Assembly (NCBI GenBank): GCA_043784805.1
Contig: JAYVXX010000094.1
Coordinates: forward strand, 1-43,072
Reading direction: 5' to 3'
DNA length: 43,072 nucleotides
Source of the DNA: Minisyncoccota bacterium
Lineage (GTDB): Bacteria; Patescibacteriota; Minisyncoccia; Phycocordibacterales; UBA5272
In this document: one piece after another, positions 1-43,072 of the stretch
How positions within the stretch are numbered: the first letter of the stretch is position 1
Layout: the number at the start of each line of letters is the position of its first letter
The notes under the pieces: model-generated
The model's database searches: none
The model's input: only the letters and a program-made list of their open reading frames with translations
Told to the model about the DNA's origin: nothing
Made by a program: the position numbers and the translations under genes

Positions 1-98
1 ATGAGCGTATGCCGCAGGGATAACAACATCTTCAGTACTACCTTCCTGTGATGATTGTACGCATTTACTGAATAGATATTCCATCCAGCCAGACCATT
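1..98. repeat. Terminal overlap identical to 42975..43072; the contig closes into a 42,974-bp circle
   Basis: Bases 1-98 match bases 42975-43072 with no mismatch. The repeat lies inside a minus-strand ORF, not in non-coding DNA. Confidence 0.95.
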
Positions 99-1334: not shown

Positions 1335-1634
1335 TCAAGACCACTCACTTATTAATCTTTCAGCCTCGTTATGATTTTTGATCGCCTTTGATCTATTACA
1401 GTTCTGACAAGAAAGCACTAGATTATTAGGGGTATGTAATCCTCCAGATCTCTCGGGGATAATATGATCTAGTTCATATGGCTTACCATTTTCATCAAGA
1501 AACTTTGGAATCTTGAAACGGTCTAGGCGAATAGAAGTCGCTCTCTTGTTACAATGTTGGCAAACGCCTTTATCCCTGACTGAAACTTCTCTACGAACTG
1601 GGTTAGGTATCCAAGACTTTTTCATGGTATGCAT
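1335..1634 (-). CDS. HNH endonuclease
   Basis: CQHC...ELDHIIPERSGGLHTPNNLVLSCQNCNRSK gives Cys pairs plus an H-N-N/H core. About 99 aa, flanked by 312-nt and 220-nt non-coding gaps. Confidence 0.85.
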   Translation of the reverse strand: MHTMKKSWIPNPVRREVSVRDKGVCQHCNKRATSIRLDRFKIPKFLDENGKPYELDHIIPERSGGLHTPNNLVLSCQNCNRSKAIKNHNEAERLISEWS

Positions 1635-4466: not shown

Positions 4467-4963
4467 GGTCTTAATCCTCCTCAATAATTAGTGCCATTAT
4501 TACTATCTCACCCACTGTATACGCCTGGCGTAGTTCAGGCATTGTTGCCCCTAAGTCCCCGCTACAGAGTAGCGAAATGTCCCGTTGTATTGGTCTCATG
4601 CTAGTTGCTTAGCTTATAAATTGCTCACTGACCAAGCCACTCAACAATGTAAGTGACTCAGGTCATTGGACAGTACAGACTCTAGGTAAATCAGGTATGG
4701 TTTTTACAGTTTCCTGCACCTCCACTATTGCGCCTGATATTTGTCTGCTGAGTTGTCAATGTGGGTGTACCGCTACCGTTTGAGTCTTGAGACTTTCGAC
4801 AGTGTTGGGCTGGTATACTTCGCGTTGAGCGGTTGGCGGGTAATGGTGCGCCGGTTGCTTCGTTTGGTATGCACAAACTATACCAGTGTACACCAGTGGA
4901 GTCAATGATTTTACTACTCATTAATGTATTATCTTACCGGTCATGATCTGGTTTCACCGGTAT

Positions 4964-5018
4964 TTTCGGTTGCTGTTCGGGCTTAGTATCGTAGGGTGAC
5001 TTTCGGTTGCTGTTCGGG
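4964..5018. promoter_or_regulatory. Two 18-nt direct repeats (TTTCGGTTGCTGTTCGGG) spaced 37 nt apart in the divergent control region
   Basis: Exact copies at 4964..4981 and 5001..5018, between the leftward early arm and the rightward gene at 5090. Confidence 0.6.
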
Positions 5019-5089
5019 GCACTATCTACTAGTGGTGTCATAAATATGTTACATTAGCACTGTACTATATTGGTAATCAAATACCGGCT

Positions 5090-5419
5090 ATGAGCTCAAA
5101 AATAGGACGCCCAGCGAATAAAGGTAGTTTTAAAAAAGGGAATCAAGTTACATTGGGAAGAGAAAAAAGCATGTCACTTTCTGCTATGGTCGAAAGTGCT
5201 TTAGATACTATTGTACCGACTACAGTGAAAGAGTGGGATGAGGTGAGGACATACCGTATGGCTATCGCGGAACGGTTACTAGTAACCGCCGTAGCTACTG
5301 AGAAGGCAGATACCGCACTCTCTTATATCAAGGAGATAATGGACCGAACCGAGGGAAAAGCTATGCAACGCAATCAAAATACCAATCTTAACGTAAACAT
5401 TGACGTTATTGCTGACTAG
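5090..5419 (+). CDS. Small basic DNA-binding protein; small terminase (TerS) candidate
   Basis: N-terminal GRPANKGSFKKGNQVTLGR (a GRPxxKG basic motif) and C-terminal ...ALSYIKEIMDRTEGKA, both common in small terminase / DUF5681-like proteins as far as I recall. First rightward gene, upstream of TerL. Confidence 0.4.
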   Translation: MSSKIGRPANKGSFKKGNQVTLGREKSMSLSAMVESALDTIVPTTVKEWDEVRTYRMAIAERLLVTAVATEKADTALSYIKEIMDRTEGKAMQRNQNTNLNVNIDVIAD

Positions 5420-5457
5420 TTCTTATTTGCCACTGTAGCGGGTCAAGATGGCGCTAT

Positions 5458-5498
5458 AGACTCTCAAAGCATGGTTTGTACCTTTGAGAGTCTTTTTT
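5458..5498 (+). terminator. Rho-independent terminator after the TerS-like gene
   Basis: AGACTCTCAAAG (5458..5469) pairs with CTTTGAGAGTCT (5482..5493), a 12-nt loop sits between them, and a T-run follows. Confidence 0.75.
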
Positions 5499-5534
5499 AT
5501 GCACTCTTTGTACGGTATCTGTTCGGTGATTATA

Positions 5535-5567
5535 GTTATCCACATGTTATCCACATGTTATCCATGG
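5535..5567 (+). promoter_or_regulatory. Three head-to-tail 11-bp repeats carrying DnaA-box consensus sequences
   Basis: TTATCCACA at 5536..5544 and 5547..5555 (both perfect) and TTATCCATG at 5558..5566. The period is 11 bp. Confidence 0.6.
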
Positions 5568-5935
5568 GCATCATATCAAACACTACTAGGGTAGCGGTCT
5601 ATGCGGTTCTACAGGTATAGTATCTAGTACTCACACCCCCCCCTAACCTGTTGACCCTTTTATAATGTCTTATATTACATATTCTAGGACATTATAGATC
5701 GCCTATATACCAGTGCTCACCAGTGTAGCGGGTGCATAGTACCCCTGTATGGTTACGTCTACCCTGCTACCTCTTACAGTTACCCTTACATACACCATAT
5801 ATATACCCATACTATAGGGTGCTTATGGGGTTATATATCGGGTTAGTATGAGACACCGACCCCCACCACTAGGAGGGGGTGAGCACACCATATACCGCTT
5901 GTGCCTGGTGCCGATCGAACGTAGTGAAAACATCC

Positions 5936-6113
5936 CTATCTTCACACTCTCTACCAAAAAATATCAAATATATTCTTACAACTATTATTACAACTATCTT
6001 CACACTCTCTCAATATATTCACAAAAAAATACCCAATATATTTTATGGGTTGGTATGGTCTAAAAAATATCTACCAAAAAAATGGACACAAAAATACACA
6101 GTTCCCTGTGTAT
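5936..6113. repeat. AT-rich block with several short direct repeats and a hairpin
   Basis: CTATCTTCACACTCTCT at 5936..5952 and 5994..6010. CTACCAAAAAA at 5951 and 6071. TTACAACTAT repeated in tandem near 5976-5996. Palindrome TACACAG-ttcc-CTGTGTA at 6095..6112. Confidence 0.7.
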
Positions 6114-6130
6114 TAAATGTTCGGTCTTTG

Positions 6131-6214
6131 TTTGGTAATTAAATTACCAATAGTTTTGTTTGGTAATTAAATTACCAATAGTTTTGTTTGGTAATTAAAT
6201 TACCAATAGTTTTG
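6131..6214. repeat. 3 x 28-bp perfect tandem repeat, each copy containing the 19-bp palindrome TTGGTAATTAAATTACCAA
   Basis: Copies start at 6131, 6159 and 6187. Each has a 9-bp inverted repeat around a central A. There is no spacer structure, so this is not a CRISPR array. Confidence 0.9.
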
Positions 6215-6479
6215 TTCGCCTACCGACTTAGCGAACCTTGAATTAAACTATACATTCCTTCTGCTAGTGAAGCGAGATTGATTCTATGGGTCGATGAGCA
6301 TTTCCATGGACTAATAATACACTCATTACACTCCGAGCGACCAACCATTTTTTCGTAGCGAGAGCGGGAGAAAAAATGGATTGGTTTGGTCGCAAGGAGT
6401 GTTCGTTGTGTTAAAAGTCGCTCAGAAAAAAAGTCCATAGGTATGCCAAAAGATTCTTAGTTGAATCTTTTGTTGAGTA

Positions 6480-7037
6480 TTTTTTAGTTTTTGTGAGTTT
6501 TTGGCGTCTTTCTTCGATGGTTCCTCCTCGACTTTCTCCTGCGGGGCGGCCTAGCGGGCCGCTCCTCGGAGTCAGTCGGAACCATTGTCGAGGTTTCCGT
6601 GTGACGCCTGAGCGGAATACGTTGTTGGAACAGGTGTTTAAGCGATGGTTCACCCCCTCCCCTCGTTAAAATTAAGGGGATTTTGGTGAGCAATTTTGGT
6701 CGGTTTTTGAGTCCGAATCGCTGTATCCTTCGCCAAACCGTAGCTCTTTTTCATGCCCGGATAAACAACACCTGTAGGAATCGGCGCTGGGTTGATTACC
6801 AGCCTGTAAGTTGTTTTTTGTGCGTCCTTCGCGGAATGTGTCCGCTCTCGACCTTCTGCAATAACGCATCAGAAGATACTTTCAGGTTCACCATGCGGTC
6901 TATTACTAGACTGAGTTAGTATATCATATCTTGATGGGAGGGTGTCAATAGTGCTATATTTGATGAGTAGATGTGGTGGTTCGCACCTATGCTAGAATAG
7001 AGTCGGGGAGTAGCTGCGCTTATCAGCTGCTCCCTTT
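6480..7037 (+). ncRNA. Candidate structured non-coding RNA locus (GC-rich, helix-dense, unclassified)
   Basis: Only short, overlapping, motif-free ORFs here. GC-only hairpin 6543..6551 / 6557..6565. Complementary segment pairs 6516..6524 with 6578..6586 and 6526..6532 with 6587..6593. Terminator-like hairpins on the plus strand at 6658..6684 and 7005..7037. Confidence 0.3.
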
Positions 7038-7040
7038 GTG
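7005..7040 (+). terminator. Terminator-like hairpin upstream of TerL
   Basis: GGGAGTAGCTG, a 7-nt loop, then CAGCTGCTCCC (11 bp with one G-U pair), followed by TTTGTGG. Confidence 0.45.
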
Positions 7041-7118
7041 GTATGATGAGGTAAATAACAGAGCTATGTGGACAATCTAAAGATTGCACTAGCAAAGGGC
7101 GGTAAAATACTGTAGACC

Positions 7119-8990
7119 ATGCGACAACTAAGCAAGCAAACTCAAGATAAGCTGAGGGACGCTCTGCGGGATGTACCCAAAGACCAATTAGACACGGAAA
7201 CGATAAAAATGATCGCCGGGGATTTTTACTTGTACCTTGAGAGAAATCTAATGATAAAGGACAAGGTGACAGGAGCTATTGTGCCATTCGAGCTGAACTG
7301 GGCGCAGAAGATCTTTGTTGGGATGGTGCTCGCCGATCTGGAAGCTGGGCGTCCAGTGCGGTACATTATTCTGAAAGCACGCCAGCTCGGCATTAGTACA
7401 GTGATTGAGGCTCTCTGTTTTTGGTGGACATCGACCCATCGCAATATCAACTCCATTATTATGGCGCACGAGCGAGAGGCTAGTAAGAACTTGTACGAAA
7501 TGTTCCGCAGGTTCTACCAAAATGCTCACCCGTACTTCCAGCCAACACTAAAATACAACACTAAGTCTGACCTGACTTTTGATGCTGATGATGAAGCGAA
7601 GATGGCTGCGGTGAGGAATAGGAACCCAGTTCCGGGACTCGGGAGTAAGATCTCGACATTAGTCGCGAAAGACGACACGGGTCGGTCGGGGACTAATCAC
7701 TTTTTCCATGGCTCAGAGGTTGCTGCCTTTGAAGACTCGGCTGATGTTATTTCGGGAGTCATTCAGACAATTCCACTCGCCTCAAAGACCTTCGCCTTTT
7801 TGGAGTCGACAGCAAAAGGTGTCGGTGGGTATTTCTTCAATGAGTGGAATGCGGCTCAGAAGGGCCTGTCTGCCTATAAGCCGTTCTTCTTGGCATGGTG
7901 GCAGCATGAGGAGTATGAACTACCCCCTAGCGGTGGAAAAGCTCCCTGGAACGATTATGAGCAGGAACTGAGGGGTATATTTGCCGATCAGGGAATGGAC
8001 ATGGAGACCCAGGAGCGAAAGATCGCTTGGACTCGTCGTAAGCAACTCGAGTTCACCTCGGACCCAAAGAAGTTCTTTCAGGAATACCCACATACCCCAA
8101 TGTCAGCATTCTTGGCGAGTGGGAACTACGCCTTTCCGATTGAGATATTGATGAAAATGCTCGATGTCGCACAGAAGCGAGAGCCTCAGTATGGGGAGAT
8201 TTATTACGACGATGAGCGTAAGGCACATCTAAAGATAGTGGAAAATTCACCAATGAAGGTATGGTATCCGGCGGTGAAGGGTCTGAAGTACGTAATCGGC
8301 GTGGATACGGCGGAGGGAATTACCGTGAGTAGCTCTACAGGGAAAGAGGGAGACTTCTCAGTGATTACAGTGATGGAGCCACAAAGCCTTACCGTGGTTG
8401 CTCGTTGGCGTGGGCACATTGATCCTGATGAACTTGGTAATGTCACCTTTGATATTGGGACGTACTACAACACGGCGCTCGTAGGTGTTGAGGTCAATAA
8501 CCACGGACTTGTTACGGTACAGAAATTGAGGGACCGATTTTACCGGAACCTGTATCAAAGAGAGACTAATGAGGAGAATCAGTTCCAGGAGAGAACTTCG
8601 GTACTAGGTTGGAGAACTGATCGTAAGACGAAACCACTCATTATTAAAAATCTGGCAGCGGCACTACGGGATGGGGACATTAAGGAGTTCGACCCAGTGT
8701 GCATAGGTGAAATGATGACCTATATGCAGGGAGACAGAGGGGAGTATGATGGTAAGGCAAATGGCCATGACGACTGCGCTATGTCTCTCGCAATTACGCT
8801 ACATATGGCGGAGTGGAGTTCGTATGATGTACAATTGGCGAAAGAGAACATAAACAAAAGCAACCCTAAAATAAAAAAACATGGCAATGCCGCCAATGAA
8901 TCAAGGGATACCGACAGGAATTCCGAACTCAGATCCAAGCGCAGGGACGCAAGGGCCTCCGCAAAAGCCTCCCGTCGTTCCAACGGGTGA
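7119..8990 (+). CDS. terL: Terminase large subunit
   Basis: 623 aa. ILKARQLGISTVIEA is a Walker-A-like motif typical of the ATPase domain of large terminases. Acidic nuclease-like C-terminal half. Sits immediately upstream of the portal gene. Confidence 0.85.
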   Translation: MRQLSKQTQDKLRDALRDVPKDQLDTETIKMIAGDFYLYLERNLMIKDKVTGAIVPFELNWAQKIFVGMVLADLEAGRPVRYIILKARQLGISTVIEALCFWWTSTHRNINSIIMAHEREASKNLYEMFRRFYQNAHPYFQPTLKYNTKSDLTFDADDEAKMAAVRNRNPVPGLGSKISTLVAKDDTGRSGTNHFFHGSEVAAFEDSADVISGVIQTIPLASKTFAFLESTAKGVGGYFFNEWNAAQKGLSAYKPFFLAWWQHEEYELPPSGGKAPWNDYEQELRGIFADQGMDMETQERKIAWTRRKQLEFTSDPKKFFQEYPHTPMSAFLASGNYAFPIEILMKMLDVAQKREPQYGEIYYDDERKAHLKIVENSPMKVWYPAVKGLKYVIGVDTAEGITVSSSTGKEGDFSVITVMEPQSLTVVARWRGHIDPDELGNVTFDIGTYYNTALVGVEVNNHGLVTVQKLRDRFYRNLYQRETNEENQFQERTSVLGWRTDRKTKPLIIKNLAAALRDGDIKEFDPVCIGEMMTYMQGDRGEYDGKANGHDDCAMSLAITLHMAEWSSYDVQLAKENINKSNPKIKKHGNAANESRDTDRNSELRSKRRDARASAKASRRSNG

Positions 8991-38697: not shown

Positions 38698-40839
38698 TTA
38701 TGGCGCAGATGGAGAGGCATTTGCAAGTTTACCCTTCCCTGGAACCTGGAATGAGAACAGCGGCTTGTCGCTCATTAGCCCTGCATCACTCACTACTTGG
38801 TCTTGATATCCGGTCTCATTTTTAACGAGCCTAATACTTTCGACCTTACCAAGTCTTTCCGTACAGCCAGCAAGGTCATATACCTTGAGGCGCTTATCTG
38901 GCCTGTTCGGGTCTAACCGAACACCTCGACCTACCATTTGATAATACAGCGCCAAGCTCATCGTAGGACGGGCGAGCACTATTGAGTCAAGCTCTGGTAC
39001 ATCAAAACCAGTCGTGAAACAGCTCACATTGATGAGGTGCTTGAACTTACCGGCTCTGAAATCAGCAACGATCTGCTCACGCTCTTTGGCGGGTGTCTCG
39101 CCCGTGACCATCTTAGCATCGAGCCAATACTGATTGAGCATCTCACATGCTCTTTCACCTTGGCGAATCGACCCGCAAAAGATCAGGTTACGCTGGCACT
39201 TTCCGTCTATCTCCTGAATCGTGTCAGCAAGCGCTCTAAGGCGCCTATCGTCCCAAAAGCACTCCAACGAGTGTTCCGTATAGTCAGCTCCCGTACTGTT
39301 CACTTTGAGGTCTGTGAGGTCAACGTGCGGAGCAATGTAGTCGATTGGAGAAAGAAATCCCTCAGCAATAAGCTCAGGAGTTTCAACTTTGTAAACGATT
39401 CCACCGCTCCAAAAGCACGGGTGACCAATTCTCATCAACGTCTTCAGCACTGAGGTAGAGTAAAGAAATCCTTTTTTGTCCTTCTCGTACTTCTGAGTTA
39501 TGCGGTACGGCGTTGCAGTGAGTCCACAGATTTTTTTACAGTCGATGGCTTTGAGGAACTGGGTGTACATGCCGGACATGTTTTTCGGGTTAACCCCGTG
39601 GCAATTATGCACCAACACACCCCCAGCAAAATAATTGTTATTATCTTTTACCTGGAGATTGTAGACGTAACAACTGAGATTACTCTCTCCAAATCTTCCG
39701 TCACCTCCTTGTTCCAAAATCGTAATACTTTCCACCCGAGCTGGTTCAGCTTCTCGTCTTTCTTTCTGTCTTTTACTCGTCTTTTCCCAAAATGGGAGCT
39801 TCCATCTACCTCCACTGCAATCATCAGGAATGGATTTCCTAGATCTACTTTGTAGGCGGTAGGGTAATGACCAGGATTTAACTTCAGCTCCATAGTTCTT
39901 ATGGGTAATTCCGGTATCCAACCACGTCCAAGACTCTCCCAAAGCATTTGTTGTGGAACACTTAACCCAGTTCCGTTCCCACCAAGAACAAGTGGTCTGT
40001 GTCCTATTCTCTTCAAGGTATCTGACATCTTTTTCCGAGTAGCCATCTTTGCCATTGGATTCTTCTCCCTCATTCTCACTGAAGACGCTCGATCTATTCC
40101 CAATCGGCTGCATTCCTTGTGGAATATCTTGCCCATTTTGGTGAACCTCCAGTACTGATGATAATCCTTCACCATCACTATTGCTCCGCACTCTGTGCAA
40201 GGGATTTGTTCTACGGGACTCTTTTTTGATGGCATATACTATATCTCCTAACTTAATTTTCTGTGCTTGCACATACCCTTTTCCTATAACAAAAAAGGGA
40301 TGATCAGGTGTGCTTATTATAGACTCACCAGATACATCAATACAATACATTTTACTAGGGATAAGCTTTTTACTAACCGCCTCAACCATTTTTACTTCAA
40401 TGGTATTAGTCTTATGATTGTAAGAACGAATAAGATCACCGGGAGCAATGGTGTCGATACGTACACCATCTATTTGAGTTGACCCAACAAAACACTCGTC
40501 AATGAGGACGTACTTAAAATCTCTGAATAAATCCGGGGAGCGATAGATGCTGCCAATTGTGGCGTAAGTGTATTTAGAAATCTCTTTGCTACGAACACTC
40601 GCTGAATAACGCCCAATATCGGCAATTCGGTATGATTTAAGCTTGTCATAATTTTGCTCTAGGAGCTCTTTAGATGGTTGTAGGATTAGTACCGGCTCAT
40701 TCAGCCGGTGACAGATTTCAGCGATCATTAGGGACTTTCCAGCGCCCGTAGCCGCTTGGACTATGAACGGTTTGTTCTTGTCGAAGGCTCTCAGCGCCGC
40801 TTCCACAGCCTCTTCCTGATAGTGACGTAGCTTATACAT
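38698..40839 (-). CDS. SF2 DExH helicase (ResIII-like N-domain plus Helicase_C) interrupted by an intein; the extein is 416 aa
   Basis: RHYQEEAV, AATGAGKS (motif I), LIDE|CH (motif II, split), and the C-terminal domain motifs FTTGFDVPELD and QMVGRGVR. Confidence 0.85.
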   Translation of the reverse strand: MYKLRHYQEEAVEAALRAFDKNKPFIVQAATGAGKSLMIAEICHRLNEPVLILQPSKELLEQNYDKLKSYRIADIGRYSASVRSKEISKYTYATIGSIYRSPDLFRDFKYVLIDECFVGSTQIDGVRIDTIAPGDLIRSYNHKTNTIEVKMVEAVSKKLIPSKMYCIDVSGESIISTPDHPFFVIGKGYVQAQKIKLGDIVYAIKKESRRTNPLHRVRSNSDGEGLSSVLEVHQNGQDIPQGMQPIGNRSSVFSENEGEESNGKDGYSEKDVRYLEENRTQTTCSWWERNWVKCSTTNALGESWTWLDTGITHKNYGAEVKSWSLPYRLQSRSRKSIPDDCSGGRWKLPFWEKTSKRQKERREAEPARVESITILEQGGDGRFGESNLSCYVYNLQVKDNNNYFAGGVLVHNCHGVNPKNMSGMYTQFLKAIDCKKICGLTATPYRITQKYEKDKKGFLYSTSVLKTLMRIGHPCFWSGGIVYKVETPELIAEGFLSPIDYIAPHVDLTDLKVNSTGADYTEHSLECFWDDRRLRALADTIQEIDGKCQRNLIFCGSIRQGERACEMLNQYWLDAKMVTGETPAKEREQIVADFRAGKFKHLINVSCFTTGFDVPELDSIVLARPTMSLALYYQMVGRGVRLDPNRPDKRLKVYDLAGCTERLGKVESIRLVKNETGYQDQVVSDAGLMSDKPLFSFQVPGKGKLANASPSAP
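39604..40494 (-). mobile_element. Class-1 intein (297 aa) inserted in helicase motif II
   Basis: Starts with CFVGST (block A). TPDHPF supplies the block B TxxH. VYNLQVKDNNNYFAGGVLVHN followed by C gives blocks F/G with the terminal HN and a +1 Cys. Confidence 0.85.
39648..40235 (-). CDS. Free-standing Vsr/DUF559-type endonuclease ORF nested out of frame inside the intein
   Basis: 195 aa, in a different reading frame from the helicase/intein ORF ((40839-40235) mod 3 = 1). AGGAG lies 9 nt upstream of its ATG. CTEC...HKEC is a zinc-finger-like pattern. ATRKKMSDTLKRIG is NUMOD3-like. QQMLWESLGRGW...YKVDLGNPFLMIAVEVDGSSH...DRKKDEKLNQLGWKVLRFWNKEV is the DUF559/Vsr-like core. Confidence 0.7.
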   Translation of the reverse strand: MPSKKSPVEQIPCTECGAIVMVKDYHQYWRFTKMGKIFHKECSRLGIDRASSVRMREKNPMAKMATRKKMSDTLKRIGHRPLVLGGNGTGLSVPQQMLWESLGRGWIPELPIRTMELKLNPGHYPTAYKVDLGNPFLMIAVEVDGSSHFGKRRVKDRKKDEKLNQLGWKVLRFWNKEVTEDLERVISVVTSTISR

Positions 40840-42655: not shown

Positions 42656-43072
42656 TGTTATTCTCCTTCTGTGGGGCTACTTCTTCCCCCTTTTGTAGTG
42701 TGGCTAACTCAGTTTCAGCTACACGATTTACTTCTGTTTGTGCCTCATCTAATGCAGCGTGCCAGCCAGCATCTCGAGTTCCTGACTGAAAGGTTCTAGA
42801 GGCTTTTACATGCAAACCGCCTATATCGTTGTACAGATTGTTTCGATAGCGGGTAACCGCCTCCCGTTCTTTTCGGGTAATAATCGGCAAGTACTTGTCA
42901 GCTTCAATGCGGTCTGACTCTTTTTCTTCCTCTGTCAAATCTGAGTAGGGTGTCTGAATGAGTCTGGTGAGGTTATGAGCGTATGCCGCAGGGATAACAA
43001 CATCTTCAGTACTACCTTCCTGTGATGATTGTACGCATTTACTGAATAGATATTCCATCCAGCCAGACCATT
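42648..43072 (-). CDS. C-terminal part of the junction-spanning hypothetical early protein
   Basis: ORF track 42648..43058. The Met at 43058 is internal once the circle is closed. No motif recognised. Confidence 0.6.
   Translation of the reverse strand, partial: WSGWMEYLFSKCVQSSQEGSTEDVVIPAAYAHNLTRLIQTPYSDLTEEEKESDRIEADKYLPIITRKEREAVTRYRNNLYNDIGGLHVKASRTFQSGTRDAGWHAALDEAQTEVNRVAETELATLQKGEEVAPQKENNND
42975..43072. repeat. Second copy of the 98-nt terminal overlap
   Basis: Identical to 1..98. Confidence 0.95.

What the first reader, a model, noticed from the sequence alone, without database searches (positions are those of the whole stretch)
5420..7118. A 1.7-kb ORF-free gap between the TerS-like gene and TerL in an otherwise tightly packed genome
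- Elsewhere, genes are separated by 0-30 nt or overlap.
- Here about 1700 nt contain only short, mutually overlapping ORFs. They have no SD and no recognisable motif, and they lie in several frames on both strands.
- The gap is compositionally mosaic. In order it contains a strong terminator, DnaA-box repeats, an AT-rich repeat block, a palindromic tandem array and a GC-rich helix-dense segment.
- This suggests a concentrated cis-acting or RNA-encoding hub (origin, packaging site, regulatory RNA) rather than decayed coding DNA.
Basis: seen in the sequence. Interest (0 to 1): 0.6.

Follow-up and report, generated by a model that had tools for sequence, protein, structure and literature searches.

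The report
Phage non-coding control region before terminase
The 1.7-kb gene-free stretch before the large terminase gene of this uncultivated phage is real and is not decayed coding DNA: it is a mosaic of a DnaA-box/AT-rich origin-like module, a strain-specific palindrome array, and a conserved set of RNA hairpins with two promoters that sits in front of the late genes.

Summary
Window 5420-7118 has no credible ORF, no Pfam hit in any frame, no tRNA and no Rfam match.

Relatives from metagenomes split the gap into four parts.
- Left module (5458-6126): terminator, two perfect phased DnaA boxes, an imperfect palindrome (b1), a G-rich block (b2) and an AT-rich repeat block. This order recurs in relatives down to 50% TerL identity. 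Best reading: a DnaA-dependent origin or control region.
- 28-bp x 3 palindrome array (6127-6216): absent from the sister strain, so it is strain-specific.
- Block 6276-7060: non-coding, yet 93-99% identical over most of its length to a sister strain whose structural genes average 81%. Its last 200 nt hold three plus-strand hairpins with invariant loops and covarying stems. Two sigma-70 extended -10 promoters bracket H1 and H2. I read this as a small structured RNA unit (P1-H1-H2/terminator) abutting the late promoter P2.
- 7068-7115: a 15-codon in-frame scar of a 200-aa gene that is intact in the sister strain.

No transcription, replication or packaging data could be obtained, so the functions are inferred.

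The parts
5090..5419 (+). Left flank: 109-aa TerS-like gene
   Evidence: The window copy hits no Pfam, PHROG or PDB entry. Two of 6 aligned homologues weakly match phrog_2538, terminase small subunit (E 0.002). The C-terminal motif IDR..GKAxQ is conserved. The AlphaFold model has pLDDT 50 and is unusable.
5458..5498 (+). Intrinsic terminator of the TerS-like gene
   Evidence: 12-bp perfect inverted repeat AGACTCTCAAAG/CTTTGAGAGTCT followed by TTTTTT. It is not present in the sister strain L006.
5535..5566 (+). Three head-to-tail DnaA-box units with an 11-bp period: two perfect TTATCCACA and one TTATCCATG
   Evidence: The sister strain has TTATCCCCA and TTATCAACA at the same place and phase. 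L008 has one perfect box plus TTATGCACA. L002 has a perfect box between b1 and b2. L014 and L009 have none.
5643..5700 (.). b1: conserved imperfect palindrome TTATAATGTC-N17-GACATTATAG
   Evidence: Found by nhmmer in window, L006/7, L008, L013, L014 (E 1e-9 to 1e-13, on both strands) and in L098 (E 0.001). The arms do not covary, read by eye from alignment A1. That fits a protein-binding DNA site or promoter element better than an RNA hairpin.
5869..5938 (+). b2: conserved block GGGTG(G/A)(A/G)CAC - variable hairpin - GCCGATCG - AACGTAGTGAAAACATCCC
   Evidence: nhmmer E 1e-12 to 1e-15 in L006/7, L008, L013, L014. Exact motif pair in L002, which has 50% TerL identity. Partial in L009. Weak in L100. 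RNAalifold gives no convincing consensus structure.
5939..6126 (.). AT-rich repeat block, a candidate DNA-unwinding element
   Evidence: 27-31% GC. Direct repeats D2-D4 and D8. An AT-rich stretch follows b2 in L002, L006 and L098 as well. The sister strain lacks 78 nt of it.
6127..6216 (.). Perfect 28-bp x 3.2 tandem array of a 19-bp palindrome; it begins at 6127 and runs into the strain-specific stretch 6137-6275
   Evidence: The assembler's contig depth for the repeat words is about 3-4x the genome depth. The array is absent from L006/L007.
6276..6852 (+). Highly conserved non-coding block with several hairpin + U-run units on the plus strand (e.g. 6440-6490, 6657-6690, 6788-6820)
   Evidence: 86-99% identity to L006 in 150-nt bins, against an 81% mean for structural genes. 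No frame is conserved as coding. Window 6640-6950 is weakly homologous to L008 3948-4254. A third contig in runs X3/X4 keeps only the core 6515-6584. Substitutions are not depleted from stems of the single-sequence fold.
6853..6891 (+). H0: hairpin CTTCTG|CAATAACGCAT|CAGAAG plus conserved 3' flank ACTTTCAGGTTCAC
   Evidence: The same loop TAACGC and the same flank occur with different complementary stems in L009 (TTCCTT/AAGGAA), L008 (CGCCGG/CCGGTG) and L098 (CCTCCT/AGGAGG). Own-partner pairing is 24/24 canonical, against 57% when arms from different phages are combined (I picked the arms by eye).
6952..6960 (+). P1: extended -10 promoter-like element TGCTATATT, preceded by conserved GTCAA
   Evidence: Found by the consensus scan. 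Relatives carry TGCTATGAT, TGGTATGAT, GGCTATAAT and TGCTAGTAT. All keep T-A-x-x-x-T.
6968..6989 (+). H1: hairpin TAGATG|TGGTGGTTCG|CACCTA with invariant loop GGTGGTTCG
   Evidence: the count of structure pairs on the gap-free alignment A14: 82.9% paired vs 56.3% in shuffles (0/500); 6 of 7 pairs changed on both sides; slid partners 29-55%. G.U pairs work only on the plus strand.
7006..7037 (+). H2: terminator-like hairpin GGGAGTAGCTG|CGCTTAT|CAGCTGCTCCC plus TTT(GTGG), with conserved loop YGCTTAK
   Evidence: Compensatory G:C to C:G change, and U.G to U-A, relative to L006. In five relatives (A12): 97.5% paired vs 58.7% in shuffles (0/500); 8 of 8 pairs changed on both sides.
7039..7047 (+). 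P2: extended -10 promoter TGGTATGAT for the late operon
   Evidence: It sits in the same position directly after H2 in L006, L008 (TGGTATGAT), L010 (TGGTACAAT), L014 and L009 (TGGTATCAT), L098 (TGATAGAAT) and L013 (TGCTATATT). Only T-A-x-x-x-T is invariant.
7068..7115 (+). 15-codon mini-ORF (VDNLKIALAKGGKIL*): an in-frame deletion scar of a 200-aa gene, in frame with TerL and ending 3 nt before its ATG
   Evidence: L006/L007 carry the intact gene (MDNPKIA...IAVAQGGKIL*) between P2 and TerL. The frame is confirmed.
7119..8990 (+). Right flank: large terminase gene
   Evidence: phrog_2 and phrog_24361. There are 887 homologues at E<=1e-30.

Best explanation
The gap is a composite non-coding control region of a ~43-kb podovirus-like phage. 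The phage has a primase, a DnaB-like helicase and recombination nucleases. I found no DNA polymerase, initiator or RNA polymerase.

1. Left third (5458-6126). After the terminator of the TerS-like gene come phased DnaA boxes, a palindromic protein-binding site (b1), a conserved G-rich block (b2) and an AT-rich repeat block. I infer that this is the replication origin or early control region. Host DnaA would bind the boxes, the AT-rich block would melt, and the phage helicase/primase plus the host replisome would be loaded there.

2. The 28-bp x 3 palindrome array is a strain-specific operator-like array for a dimeric DNA-binding protein. It is dispensable at clade level.

3. Right half (6276-7060). 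This is constrained non-coding sequence. Its best-defined part is a small plus-strand transcription unit: extended -10 promoter P1, hairpin H1 (invariant loop GGUGGUUCG), then hairpin H2 (loop YGCUUAK), which is an intrinsic terminator. Another conserved-loop hairpin, H0, precedes it. A second extended -10 promoter, P2, follows immediately and drives TerL and the 24-kb late operon. H2 insulates P2 from upstream transcription. The ~80-nt RNA, or its DNA, probably modulates late-gene expression. In three relatives the H2 loop is complementary to 8 nt (7 in one of them) at the start region of the first gene after P2.

4. Accessory genes are repeatedly inserted between this module and TerL. In this phage one such gene was removed by an in-frame deletion that left a 15-codon ORF abutting the TerL start.

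Shown: anatomy, conservation, covariation, absence of coding signal. Inferred: DnaA binding, origin firing, promoter activity, transcription of the RNA.
For: - Absence of coding signal.
- DnaA boxes are unique in the genome and recur at the same place in relatives.
- The order TerS-like gene, (DnaA boxes), b1, b2, AT-rich block is conserved in L006/7, L008, L013, L014, L098 and L002.
- Replication gene set without polymerase or initiator among ORFs of at least 90 aa.
- Block 6276-6985 is 86-99% identical (93-99% in four of five bins) to a strain whose structural genes average 81% and whose TerS-like gene is at 69%.
- The right module is homologous in L009 (Smith-Waterman score 112 vs shuffled maximum 61), L008, L011, L014 and L098.
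- Covariation: H2 97.5% vs 58.7% paired (0/500 shuffles); H1 82.9% vs 56.3% (0/500). H0 24/24 vs 57%.
- P1 and P2 keep only the T-A-x-x-x-T positions of the -10 hexamer across relatives, plus TG.
- Cargo genes between P2 and TerL in L006, L098 and L013.
- Deletion scar.
Against: - No expression, replication or read-end data: no RNA run holds the stretch, and the DNA runs are kept as contigs only.
- The DnaA boxes are about 370 nt from the AT-rich block and are missing in L014 and L009.
- GC skew gives only a broad local minimum, confounded by gene orientation.
- The whole-segment structure test on the 790-nt block is negative: 15 pairs kept vs 22 broken.
- The covariance model built from window + L006 finds the L008 site only at E=0.55.
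- I chose the hairpin arms for the covariation counts around conserved loops, and any terminator hairpin would show stem 'covariation'.
- The H2-loop/start-region complementarity is seen in L006, L014 and L098 (read by eye). It is only 5 nt in the window and I did not see it in L008.
- Relatives at ~50% TerL identity lack the right module altogether.
Confidence: 0.6

Rival explanations
1. The gap holds the physical genome ends (short direct terminal repeats) and the packaging-initiation site. It would be recognised by the TerS-like protein encoded just upstream and cut by TerL encoded just downstream. The repeats, b1/b2 and the very high conservation would reflect terminase recognition and end-replication functions, as at the ends of T7-type genomes.
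For: - The position lies between the TerS-like and TerL genes, at the junction of the leftward and rightward gene arms.
- b1 is a palindromic site whose arms do not covary, which fits protein binding.
- Short repeat arrays are present.
- The assembly is circular with a 98-nt overlap, as expected for collapsed terminal redundancy.
- The region is among the most conserved in the genome.
Against: - A circular assembly is equally expected for a circularly permuted (headful) genome.
- No read-start data exist to show ends.
- The covarying plus-strand hairpins with G.U pairs, and the promoter-like elements, are not explained by duplex recognition sites.
- The two roles are not mutually exclusive.
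Confidence: 0.2
2. The whole 6276-7060 block (about 790 nt) is one large structured non-coding RNA of a new class, comparable in size to GOLLD or ROOL RNAs carried by phages. H0, H1 and H2 would be only its most conserved 3' domains, and 'P1' would be an internal conserved single-stranded stretch.
For: - 93-99% identity over ~700 nt to the sister strain, above the structural-gene mean of 81% and matching or exceeding the best capsid-gene bins.
- Fold z-scores of -4.2 and -6.4.
- A 70-nt core is kept in a third, more diverged contig.
- Homology to L008 extends back to about 6640.
- Three hairpins have conserved loops.
- RNAalifold on window/L006/L009 gives 54 pairs, 10 of them with compensatory change.
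Against: - No Rfam family matches in the window or in five relatives.
- Substitutions are not depleted from stems, and more pairs are broken than kept in the single-sequence fold.
- nhmmer finds no homologue of 6276-7065 in more distant relatives.
- The P1 variants follow the -10 hexamer rule.
- The high identity to a single strain could reflect recent recombination rather than constraint.
Confidence: 0.15
3. The gap is mostly decaying or recently exchanged DNA. It would be a variable 'cargo' slot between the TerS-like gene and TerL, where accessory genes come and go. The present sequence would be remnants plus ordinary promoters and terminators, with no special function beyond them.
For: - The same interval holds different genes in relatives: RecA-like and an 'ELW' ORF, an Endonuclease VII gene, HNH endonuclease genes, a 200-aa gene and small ORFs.
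- A clear deletion scar lies at 7068-7115.
- The palindrome array and part of the AT-rich block differ between the two closest strains.
- The right module is absent at ~50% TerL identity.
Against: - No protein-family signal in any frame.
- Conservation exceeds that of neighbouring genes.
- b1/b2 are conserved to 50% TerL identity.
- Invariant loops with covarying stems occur in phages whose TerL proteins are only 55-63% identical.
Confidence: 0.05

Closest known systems
Injection-stop (iss) untranslated region in the left terminal repeat of T5-like phages (Davison, bioRxiv 10.1101/866236)
   Same: A large untranslated phage region packed with repeats, inverted repeats and palindromes. It carries closely spaced consensus DnaA boxes (TTATCCACA) and the same one-mismatch variants (TTATCAACA, TTATCCCCA) that the sister strain L006 has here.
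   Different: In T5 there are eight boxes, in pairs 3 bp apart, embedded in inverted repeats with a fixed 52-bp spacer, inside a 10-kb terminal repeat. Here there are two to three direct head-to-tail boxes with 2 bp between them, not inside inverted repeats, and no evidence of a terminal repeat. The T5 role (injection stop through membrane-bound DnaA) is itself only a hypothesis.
DnaA-dependent origins (bacterial oriC; plasmid and phage origins with DnaA boxes, such as P1 oriR), from my own knowledge
   Same: A cluster of consensus DnaA boxes near an AT-rich repeat-containing block, in a replicon that encodes no initiator or polymerase of its own but has a helicase and a primase.
   Different: The boxes lie about 370 nt from the AT-rich block. 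No 13-mer or DnaA-trio pattern was tested. The boxes are absent in two relatives. No functional evidence.
Phage 'moron'-type cassettes and the lambdoid late-promoter/terminated-leader arrangement (PR'-6S RNA-tR'), from my own knowledge
   Same: A constitutive-looking sigma-70 promoter is followed by a short structured transcript ending at an intrinsic terminator, directly in front of the late (terminase-first) operon. Accessory genes are inserted as promoter-gene-terminator units (L013, L006, L098).
   Different: A second promoter (P2) follows the terminator, so read-through is not required. No Q-like antiterminator gene was recognised. The invariant loops of H1 and H2 have no counterpart that I know of.
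Large phage-borne non-coding RNAs (GOLLD, ROOL) and phi29 packaging RNA (Rfam families)
   Same: A conserved, helix-rich non-coding segment in a phage genome. It lies next to the packaging genes, in a genome where I could not confirm a small terminase subunit.
   Different: No covariance-model match at E<=1 in the window or in relatives. Support is for discrete short hairpins, not for a large fold.

Membership tests
Any Rfam 15 RNA family (including GOLLD, ROOL, pRNA, group I/II introns, riboswitches) | Covariance-model match at or near the gathering score | tested here: not met
   No match at E<=1 in window 4900-7400. Only sub-threshold hairpin noise at E<=10. No match in L098, L011, L008, L009 or L014.
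Protein-coding gene or pseudogene across the gap | Homology of a reading frame to a protein family, or conservation of a frame with mostly synonymous change | tested here: not met
   Six frames give no Pfam hit at E<=1. ORFs give no PHROG hit. All substitutions against L006 in open frames change the residue, and there are 1-nt indels. Exception: 7068-7115 is a 15-codon remnant of the L006 200-aa gene.
DnaA-dependent replication origin | Cluster of consensus DnaA boxes | tested here: met
   Two perfect boxes and one variant with an 11-bp period. They are the only perfect boxes in 43 kb. Boxes recur at the homologous place in L006, L008, L002 and L013, but not in L014 or L009.
DnaA-dependent replication origin | Adjacent AT-rich unwinding element | tested here: inconclusive
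   A block of 27-31% GC with repeats exists at about 5940-6200, but it starts about 370 nt from the boxes. Cumulative GC skew is not decisive.
DnaA-dependent replication origin | Replication initiates there | not testable with these tools
   Needs marker-frequency data, 2-D gels or a plasmid origin assay.
T5-type iss region | Paired DnaA boxes embedded in inverted repeats with a fixed spacer, inside a long terminal repeat | tested here: not met
   The boxes here are direct tandem copies outside any inverted repeat. Compare the description in 10.1101/866236, section 3.3.3. Whether the region lies in a terminal repeat could not be tested.
Intrinsic terminator followed by a sigma-70 extended -10 promoter (H2/P2) | GC-rich hairpin plus U-run, then TGnTAxxxT at a fixed distance, conserved in relatives | tested here: met
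   The U-run is weak in L014 and L098.
Small structured regulatory RNA gene (P1-H1-H2) | Conserved secondary structure with compensatory changes | tested here: met
   H1: 82.9% vs 56.3% paired, 6 of 7 pairs with both-side changes. H2: 97.5% vs 58.7%, 8 of 8. Only five sequences each, and the segments were chosen around the conserved loops.
Small structured regulatory RNA gene (P1-H1-H2) | The RNA is transcribed | not testable with these tools
   No RNA run holds the stretch.
Packaging site / genome terminus (pac, cos or direct terminal repeat) | Fixed molecule ends or doubled coverage at the site | not testable with these tools
   Runs X1-X4 are held as assembled contigs only. The contigs break only at the tandem arrays. 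The window has a 98-nt terminal overlap.

The most novel reading that the evidence does not exclude
The conserved hairpin set H0-H1-H2, possibly with the whole 6276-7060 block, could be a new family of phage-encoded structured RNA. It would be specific to a clade of uncultivated SU10-portal-type podoviruses. It would govern the switch to late or terminase expression, or take part in packaging. Its invariant loops (UAACGC, GGUGGUUCG, UUCGCUUAG) would act as recognition or kissing-loop sites, one of which pairs with the start region of the first late gene.
Probability: 0.3. Interest if true: 0.7.

Novelty: new variant of a known kind. Interest (0 to 1): 0.55.

Why it matters
Non-coding control regions of uncultivated phages are almost never annotated. 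This one shows, from comparative sequence alone, where such a phage probably recruits host DnaA. It also shows where its late promoter sits and where accessory genes are swapped in and out.

It contains a candidate new small structured RNA with invariant loops directly in front of the terminase gene. If that RNA is real, it offers a handle on late-gene timing in a widespread freshwater/sediment phage clade (887 TerL homologues at E<=1e-30) and a motif for finding more members. The DnaA-box cluster adds an independent case to the little-studied use of host DnaA by lytic-type phages, as proposed for the T5 iss region.

Tried and rejected
- DNA similarity of the gap to 50,697 phage records: no match.
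- Exact-word scans of IMG/VR with the palindrome array, two core words and two b2 patterns found nothing, the relative already in hand, or chance hits inside long ORFs (L004/L005; L016 in a 640-kb contig was not inspected).
- The genome-contig scan gave one 23-nt identity inside a coding region of a deltaproteobacterial MAG. I judge it a chance hit.
- The JGI metagenome scan with a TerL alignment gave 80 loci. None carries b1/b2 or the right module by nhmmer.
- tblastn of relatives' upstream proteins (RecA-like, 'ELW' ORF) against the window: absent.
- Alternative genetic codes (TGA=W, TAG=Q) give no coherent gene. The 'TGA=W' flag on the L098 TerL is a gene-caller artefact, because the TGA codons lie only past the real C-terminus.
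- The structure prediction of the TerS-like protein was too poor to search with (pLDDT 50).
- The L006 200-aa protein has no Pfam or PDB sequence hit. My by-eye reading of an HxK...GSxN, phospholipase-D-like motif is unverified.
- The covariance model R1 (window + L006) was overfit. It placed the L008, L009, L010 and L011 sites among its top hits only at E 0.5-4.
- MAFFT alignments of whole modules mis-register the stems. The covariation counts therefore use gap-free segments anchored on the invariant loops.
- GC skew is not informative.
Full report
**1. The observation**

Window 5420-7118 lies between a 109-aa ORF (5090-5419) and the large terminase gene (7119-8990; phrog_2). The portal gene follows (SU10_portal).
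- The longest ORF inside the gap is 87 aa, and the ORFs overlap on both strands.
- None hits PHROGs.
- All six frames, with stops masked, give no Pfam family at E<=1.
- No tRNA was found and no Rfam family at E<=1. At E<=10 there are only hairpin-like microRNA noise hits far below gathering scores.
- Reading TGA as Trp or TAG as Gln does not create a coherent gene.

- a 12-bp perfect hairpin plus T-run at 5458-5498;
- GTTATCCACAT x2.7 at 5535-5564, holding the only two perfect TTATCCACA sites in the genome (shuffle mean 0.35; 5 of 100 shuffles reached 2);
- a block of 27-31% GC with interleaved direct repeats;
- a perfect 28-nt x 3.2 array of a 19-nt palindrome at 6127-6216;
- a GC-rich part that folds much better than shuffles, with z = -4.2 on the plus strand and -6.4 on the minus strand.

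The window has a 98-nt terminal overlap, so it is a complete circular assembly of 42,974 bp. The genome is not uniformly tight, but this is its longest ORF-free stretch.

**2. What kind of phage**

Genes on the minus strand run leftward from about 5040 and, across the circle, down to about 31,660. The plus-strand late genes run from TerL to about 31,420.
- Replication and recombination genes found: a primase, a DnaB-like helicase, a PD-(D/E)XK exonuclease and an SNF2-type helicase with an intein.
- Among ORFs of at least 90 aa I found no DNA polymerase, initiator or RNA polymerase. Not every ORF was scanned.
- The sample is a sediment metagenome.

**3. Relatives**

No phage record matches the gap DNA. 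TerL has 887 homologues at E<=1e-30. I fetched the following contigs:
- L006/L007 (TerL 90% identical), L010 and L011/L012 (62-63%), L008 (60%), L009, L013 and L098 (58%), L014 (55%);
- several at about 50-54%: L001-L003, L099 and L100.

In the group at 55% identity or more, the interval between the small plus-strand gene and TerL is again 1.2-1.8 kb and gene-poor. In the ~50% group it is filled with small genes, a RecA-like gene and a ~100-aa ORF that overlaps TerL. None of these has a trace in the window.

**4. Left module**

A five-way alignment and nhmmer searches define two conserved blocks.
- b1 (5643-5700) is an imperfect palindrome, TTATAATGTC-N17-GACATTATAG. Its arms do not covary, which fits a protein site or promoter element.
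- b2 (5869-5938) reads GGGTGGACAC, a variable hairpin, GCCGATCG, then AACGTAGTGAAAACATCCC.

Both occur in L006/7, L008, L013 and L014. b1 also occurs in L098. The b2 motif pair is exact in L002, which has only 50% TerL identity.

DnaA boxes recur beside them:
- L008 has a perfect box plus TTATGCACA.
- L002 has a perfect box between b1 and b2.
- L006 has two one-mismatch boxes at the same 11-bp phase.
- L014 and L009 have none.

An AT-rich stretch follows b2 in the window, L006, L002 and L098.

The phage has a helicase and a primase but no recognised initiator or polymerase. I therefore read this module as a DnaA-dependent origin or early control region. That is an inference. The boxes are about 370 nt from the AT-rich block, and GC skew is uninformative. 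The closest published analogue is the untranslated iss region of T5-like phages. It has the same box variants but a different arrangement (10.1101/866236).

**5. Palindrome array**

Window 6137-6275, which includes most of the array, is simply absent from L006/L007. The diverged strain in runs X3/X4 replaces it with other letters. The array is therefore strain-specific. An operator-like array for a dimeric binding protein is the most natural reading, but nothing here tests that.

**6. Right half**

Identity against L006 was measured in 150-nt bins.

| Region | Identity to L006 |
|---|---|
| Window 6276-6985 | 95, 86, 93, 99, 86% |
| TerL, 5' part | 86% |
| Structural genes, mean | 81% |
| Major capsid region | 90-96% |
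| TerS-like gene | 69% |

- Every substitution in every open frame changes the residue, and there are 1-nt indels. The block is therefore constrained but non-coding.
- A third contig in X3/X4 keeps only the core 6515-6584.
- A global test is negative. In the single-sequence minimum-energy fold, substitutions are not depleted from stems, and more pairs are broken than kept: 15 vs 22 on the plus strand and 10 vs 11 on the minus strand.
- nhmmer finds no distant homologue of the whole block.

**7. The last ~200 nt are different**

Reading the sequences upstream of TerL in the relatives, together with Smith-Waterman scores, shows a conserved module. The scores are 112 for window vs L009 (shuffled maximum 61) and 76 for window vs L008 (shuffled maximum 66). 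The module has these parts:
- H0: a hairpin with loop UAACGC and 3' flank ACUUUnAnGUUGCC. The stems differ: CUUCUG/CAGAAG (window), UUCCUU/AAGGAA (L009), CGCCGG/CCGGUG (L008), CCUCCU/AGGAGG (L098).
- A GTCAA...TG(C/G)TAT(R)AT element, called P1 here.
- H1: a hairpin with invariant loop GGUGGUUCG.
- H2: a terminator-like hairpin with loop (U)UYGCUUAK and a U-run.
- A second extended -10 element, P2.

P2 reads TGGTATGAT, TGGTATCAT, TGGTACAAT, TGATAGAAT or TGCTATATT in the different phages. Only the T-A-x-x-x-T positions are invariant, which is the signature of a sigma-70 -10 hexamer.

Covariation, counted on gap-free alignments anchored on the loops:

| Hairpin | Own pairing | Shuffled | Shuffles reaching observed | Pairs changed on both sides | Slid partners |
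|---|---|---|---|---|---|
| H2 | 97.5% | 58.7% | 0/500 | 8 of 8 | 35-51% |
| H1 | 82.9% | 56.3% | 0/500 | 6 of 7 | 29-55% |
| H0 | 24/24 | 57% (cross-phage arms) | not run | not counted | not run |

- Between the window and L006, H2 itself shows a G:C to C:G swap.
- The G.U pairs would be A.C mismatches on the minus strand, so the structures belong to the plus strand.
- Caveats: five sequences per hairpin, arms chosen by me around the loops, and the fact that any terminator has a stem.
- The module is absent from the ~50% relatives and matches no Rfam family in five relatives.

**8. Cargo slot and scar**

Between P2 and TerL, L006/L007 carry a 200-aa gene. It has no Pfam or PDB hit. L098 carries a 66-aa ORF and L013 an 89-aa ORF with its own terminator and promoter.

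The window keeps only the first 7 and last 8 codons of the L006 gene, as an intact 15-codon ORF (GTG 7068 to TAG 7115). It is in frame with TerL and ends 3 nt before the TerL ATG. I see no Shine-Dalgarno sequence close to the TerL ATG. Preservation of the mini-ORF may therefore reflect translational coupling. This is an inference.

**9. A lead, not a result**

The H2 loop is complementary to a short stretch at the start region of the first gene after P2:
- L006: ATAAGCGG (8 nt), just 5' of the ATG;
- L014: CTAAGCG (7 nt), beside the Shine-Dalgarno sequence;
- L098: TTAAGCGA (8 nt), in TerL codons 4-6.

In the window the match is only 5 nt, and I did not see one in L008. All of this was read by eye.

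**10. Verdict**

The gap is real and functional-looking. It is a mosaic with four origins: a clade-wide origin-like/control module, a strain-specific palindrome array, a constrained non-coding block ending in a small structured RNA and double-promoter unit before the late operon, and a gene-deletion scar.

'One large structured RNA' and 'packaging site' remain untested rivals. No transcript, replication or end data could be obtained.

Noticed in passing
window 1-98 and 42975-43072: The first and last 98 nt are identical, so the window is a complete circular assembly of 42,974 bp. The public contigs of the source runs break only at the two tandem arrays, 264-530 and 6127-6216.
   Followed up: partly
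window 7068-7115; L006 2542-3144: A 15-codon mini-ORF is an in-frame deletion remnant of a 200-aa gene that is intact in the 90% sister strain. It is in frame with TerL and stops 3 nt before the TerL ATG, and I see no nearby Shine-Dalgarno sequence for TerL, so translational coupling is possible. The 200-aa protein has an HTKGGILV...GSTNWS stretch that looks phospholipase-D/Nuc-like to me, but it has no Pfam or PDB hit.
   Followed up: partly
window 38698-40839 (minus strand): The 713-aa SNF2/DEAD-type helicase carries an intein (Pfam Intein_splicing and PT-HINT, residues ~126-412). One TerL homologue in the database (P0112, 976 aa) also has an intein domain.
   Followed up: no
window 7119-7208: The public gene call for this contig's TerL is 593 aa (P0001), starting 30 codons later than the 623-aa ORF. 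The 90% homologue P0002 supports the 623-aa start.
   Followed up: no
L098 1799-3766: The TerL of this relative is on record only 'with TGA=W'. Its four TGA codons all lie beyond residue 632, past the end of the alignment with the window's TerL. This is a gene-caller artefact, not a recoded phage.
   Followed up: yes
window 6516-6538; L097: A 23-nt exact identity to a coding region (GWFLLDFL) of a deltaproteobacterial MAG. There is no similarity beyond it, so I judge it chance.
   Followed up: yes
L008 4245-4300; L098 1388-1440: Two relatives carry an extra conserved hairpin module between H0 and P1: GTCAATA...CCAAAAAACCACC|CGTAACG.CGAGTG.CT|AGGTGGT. Its 3' arm, GGUGGU, repeats the H1 loop sequence, which hints at alternative pairing. 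The window lacks this module.
   Followed up: no
window 1335-1634 (minus strand); L009 476-904 and 8849-9364: HNH endonuclease genes occur in the window and in relatives, and an Endonuclease VII gene sits in the L009 gap. Free-standing nuclease genes recur around this interval.
   Followed up: no
window 6093-6114 (minus strand): A terminator-like hairpin plus T-run on the minus strand, at the right edge of the AT-rich block. It could end a leftward transcript crossing the palindrome array.
   Followed up: no
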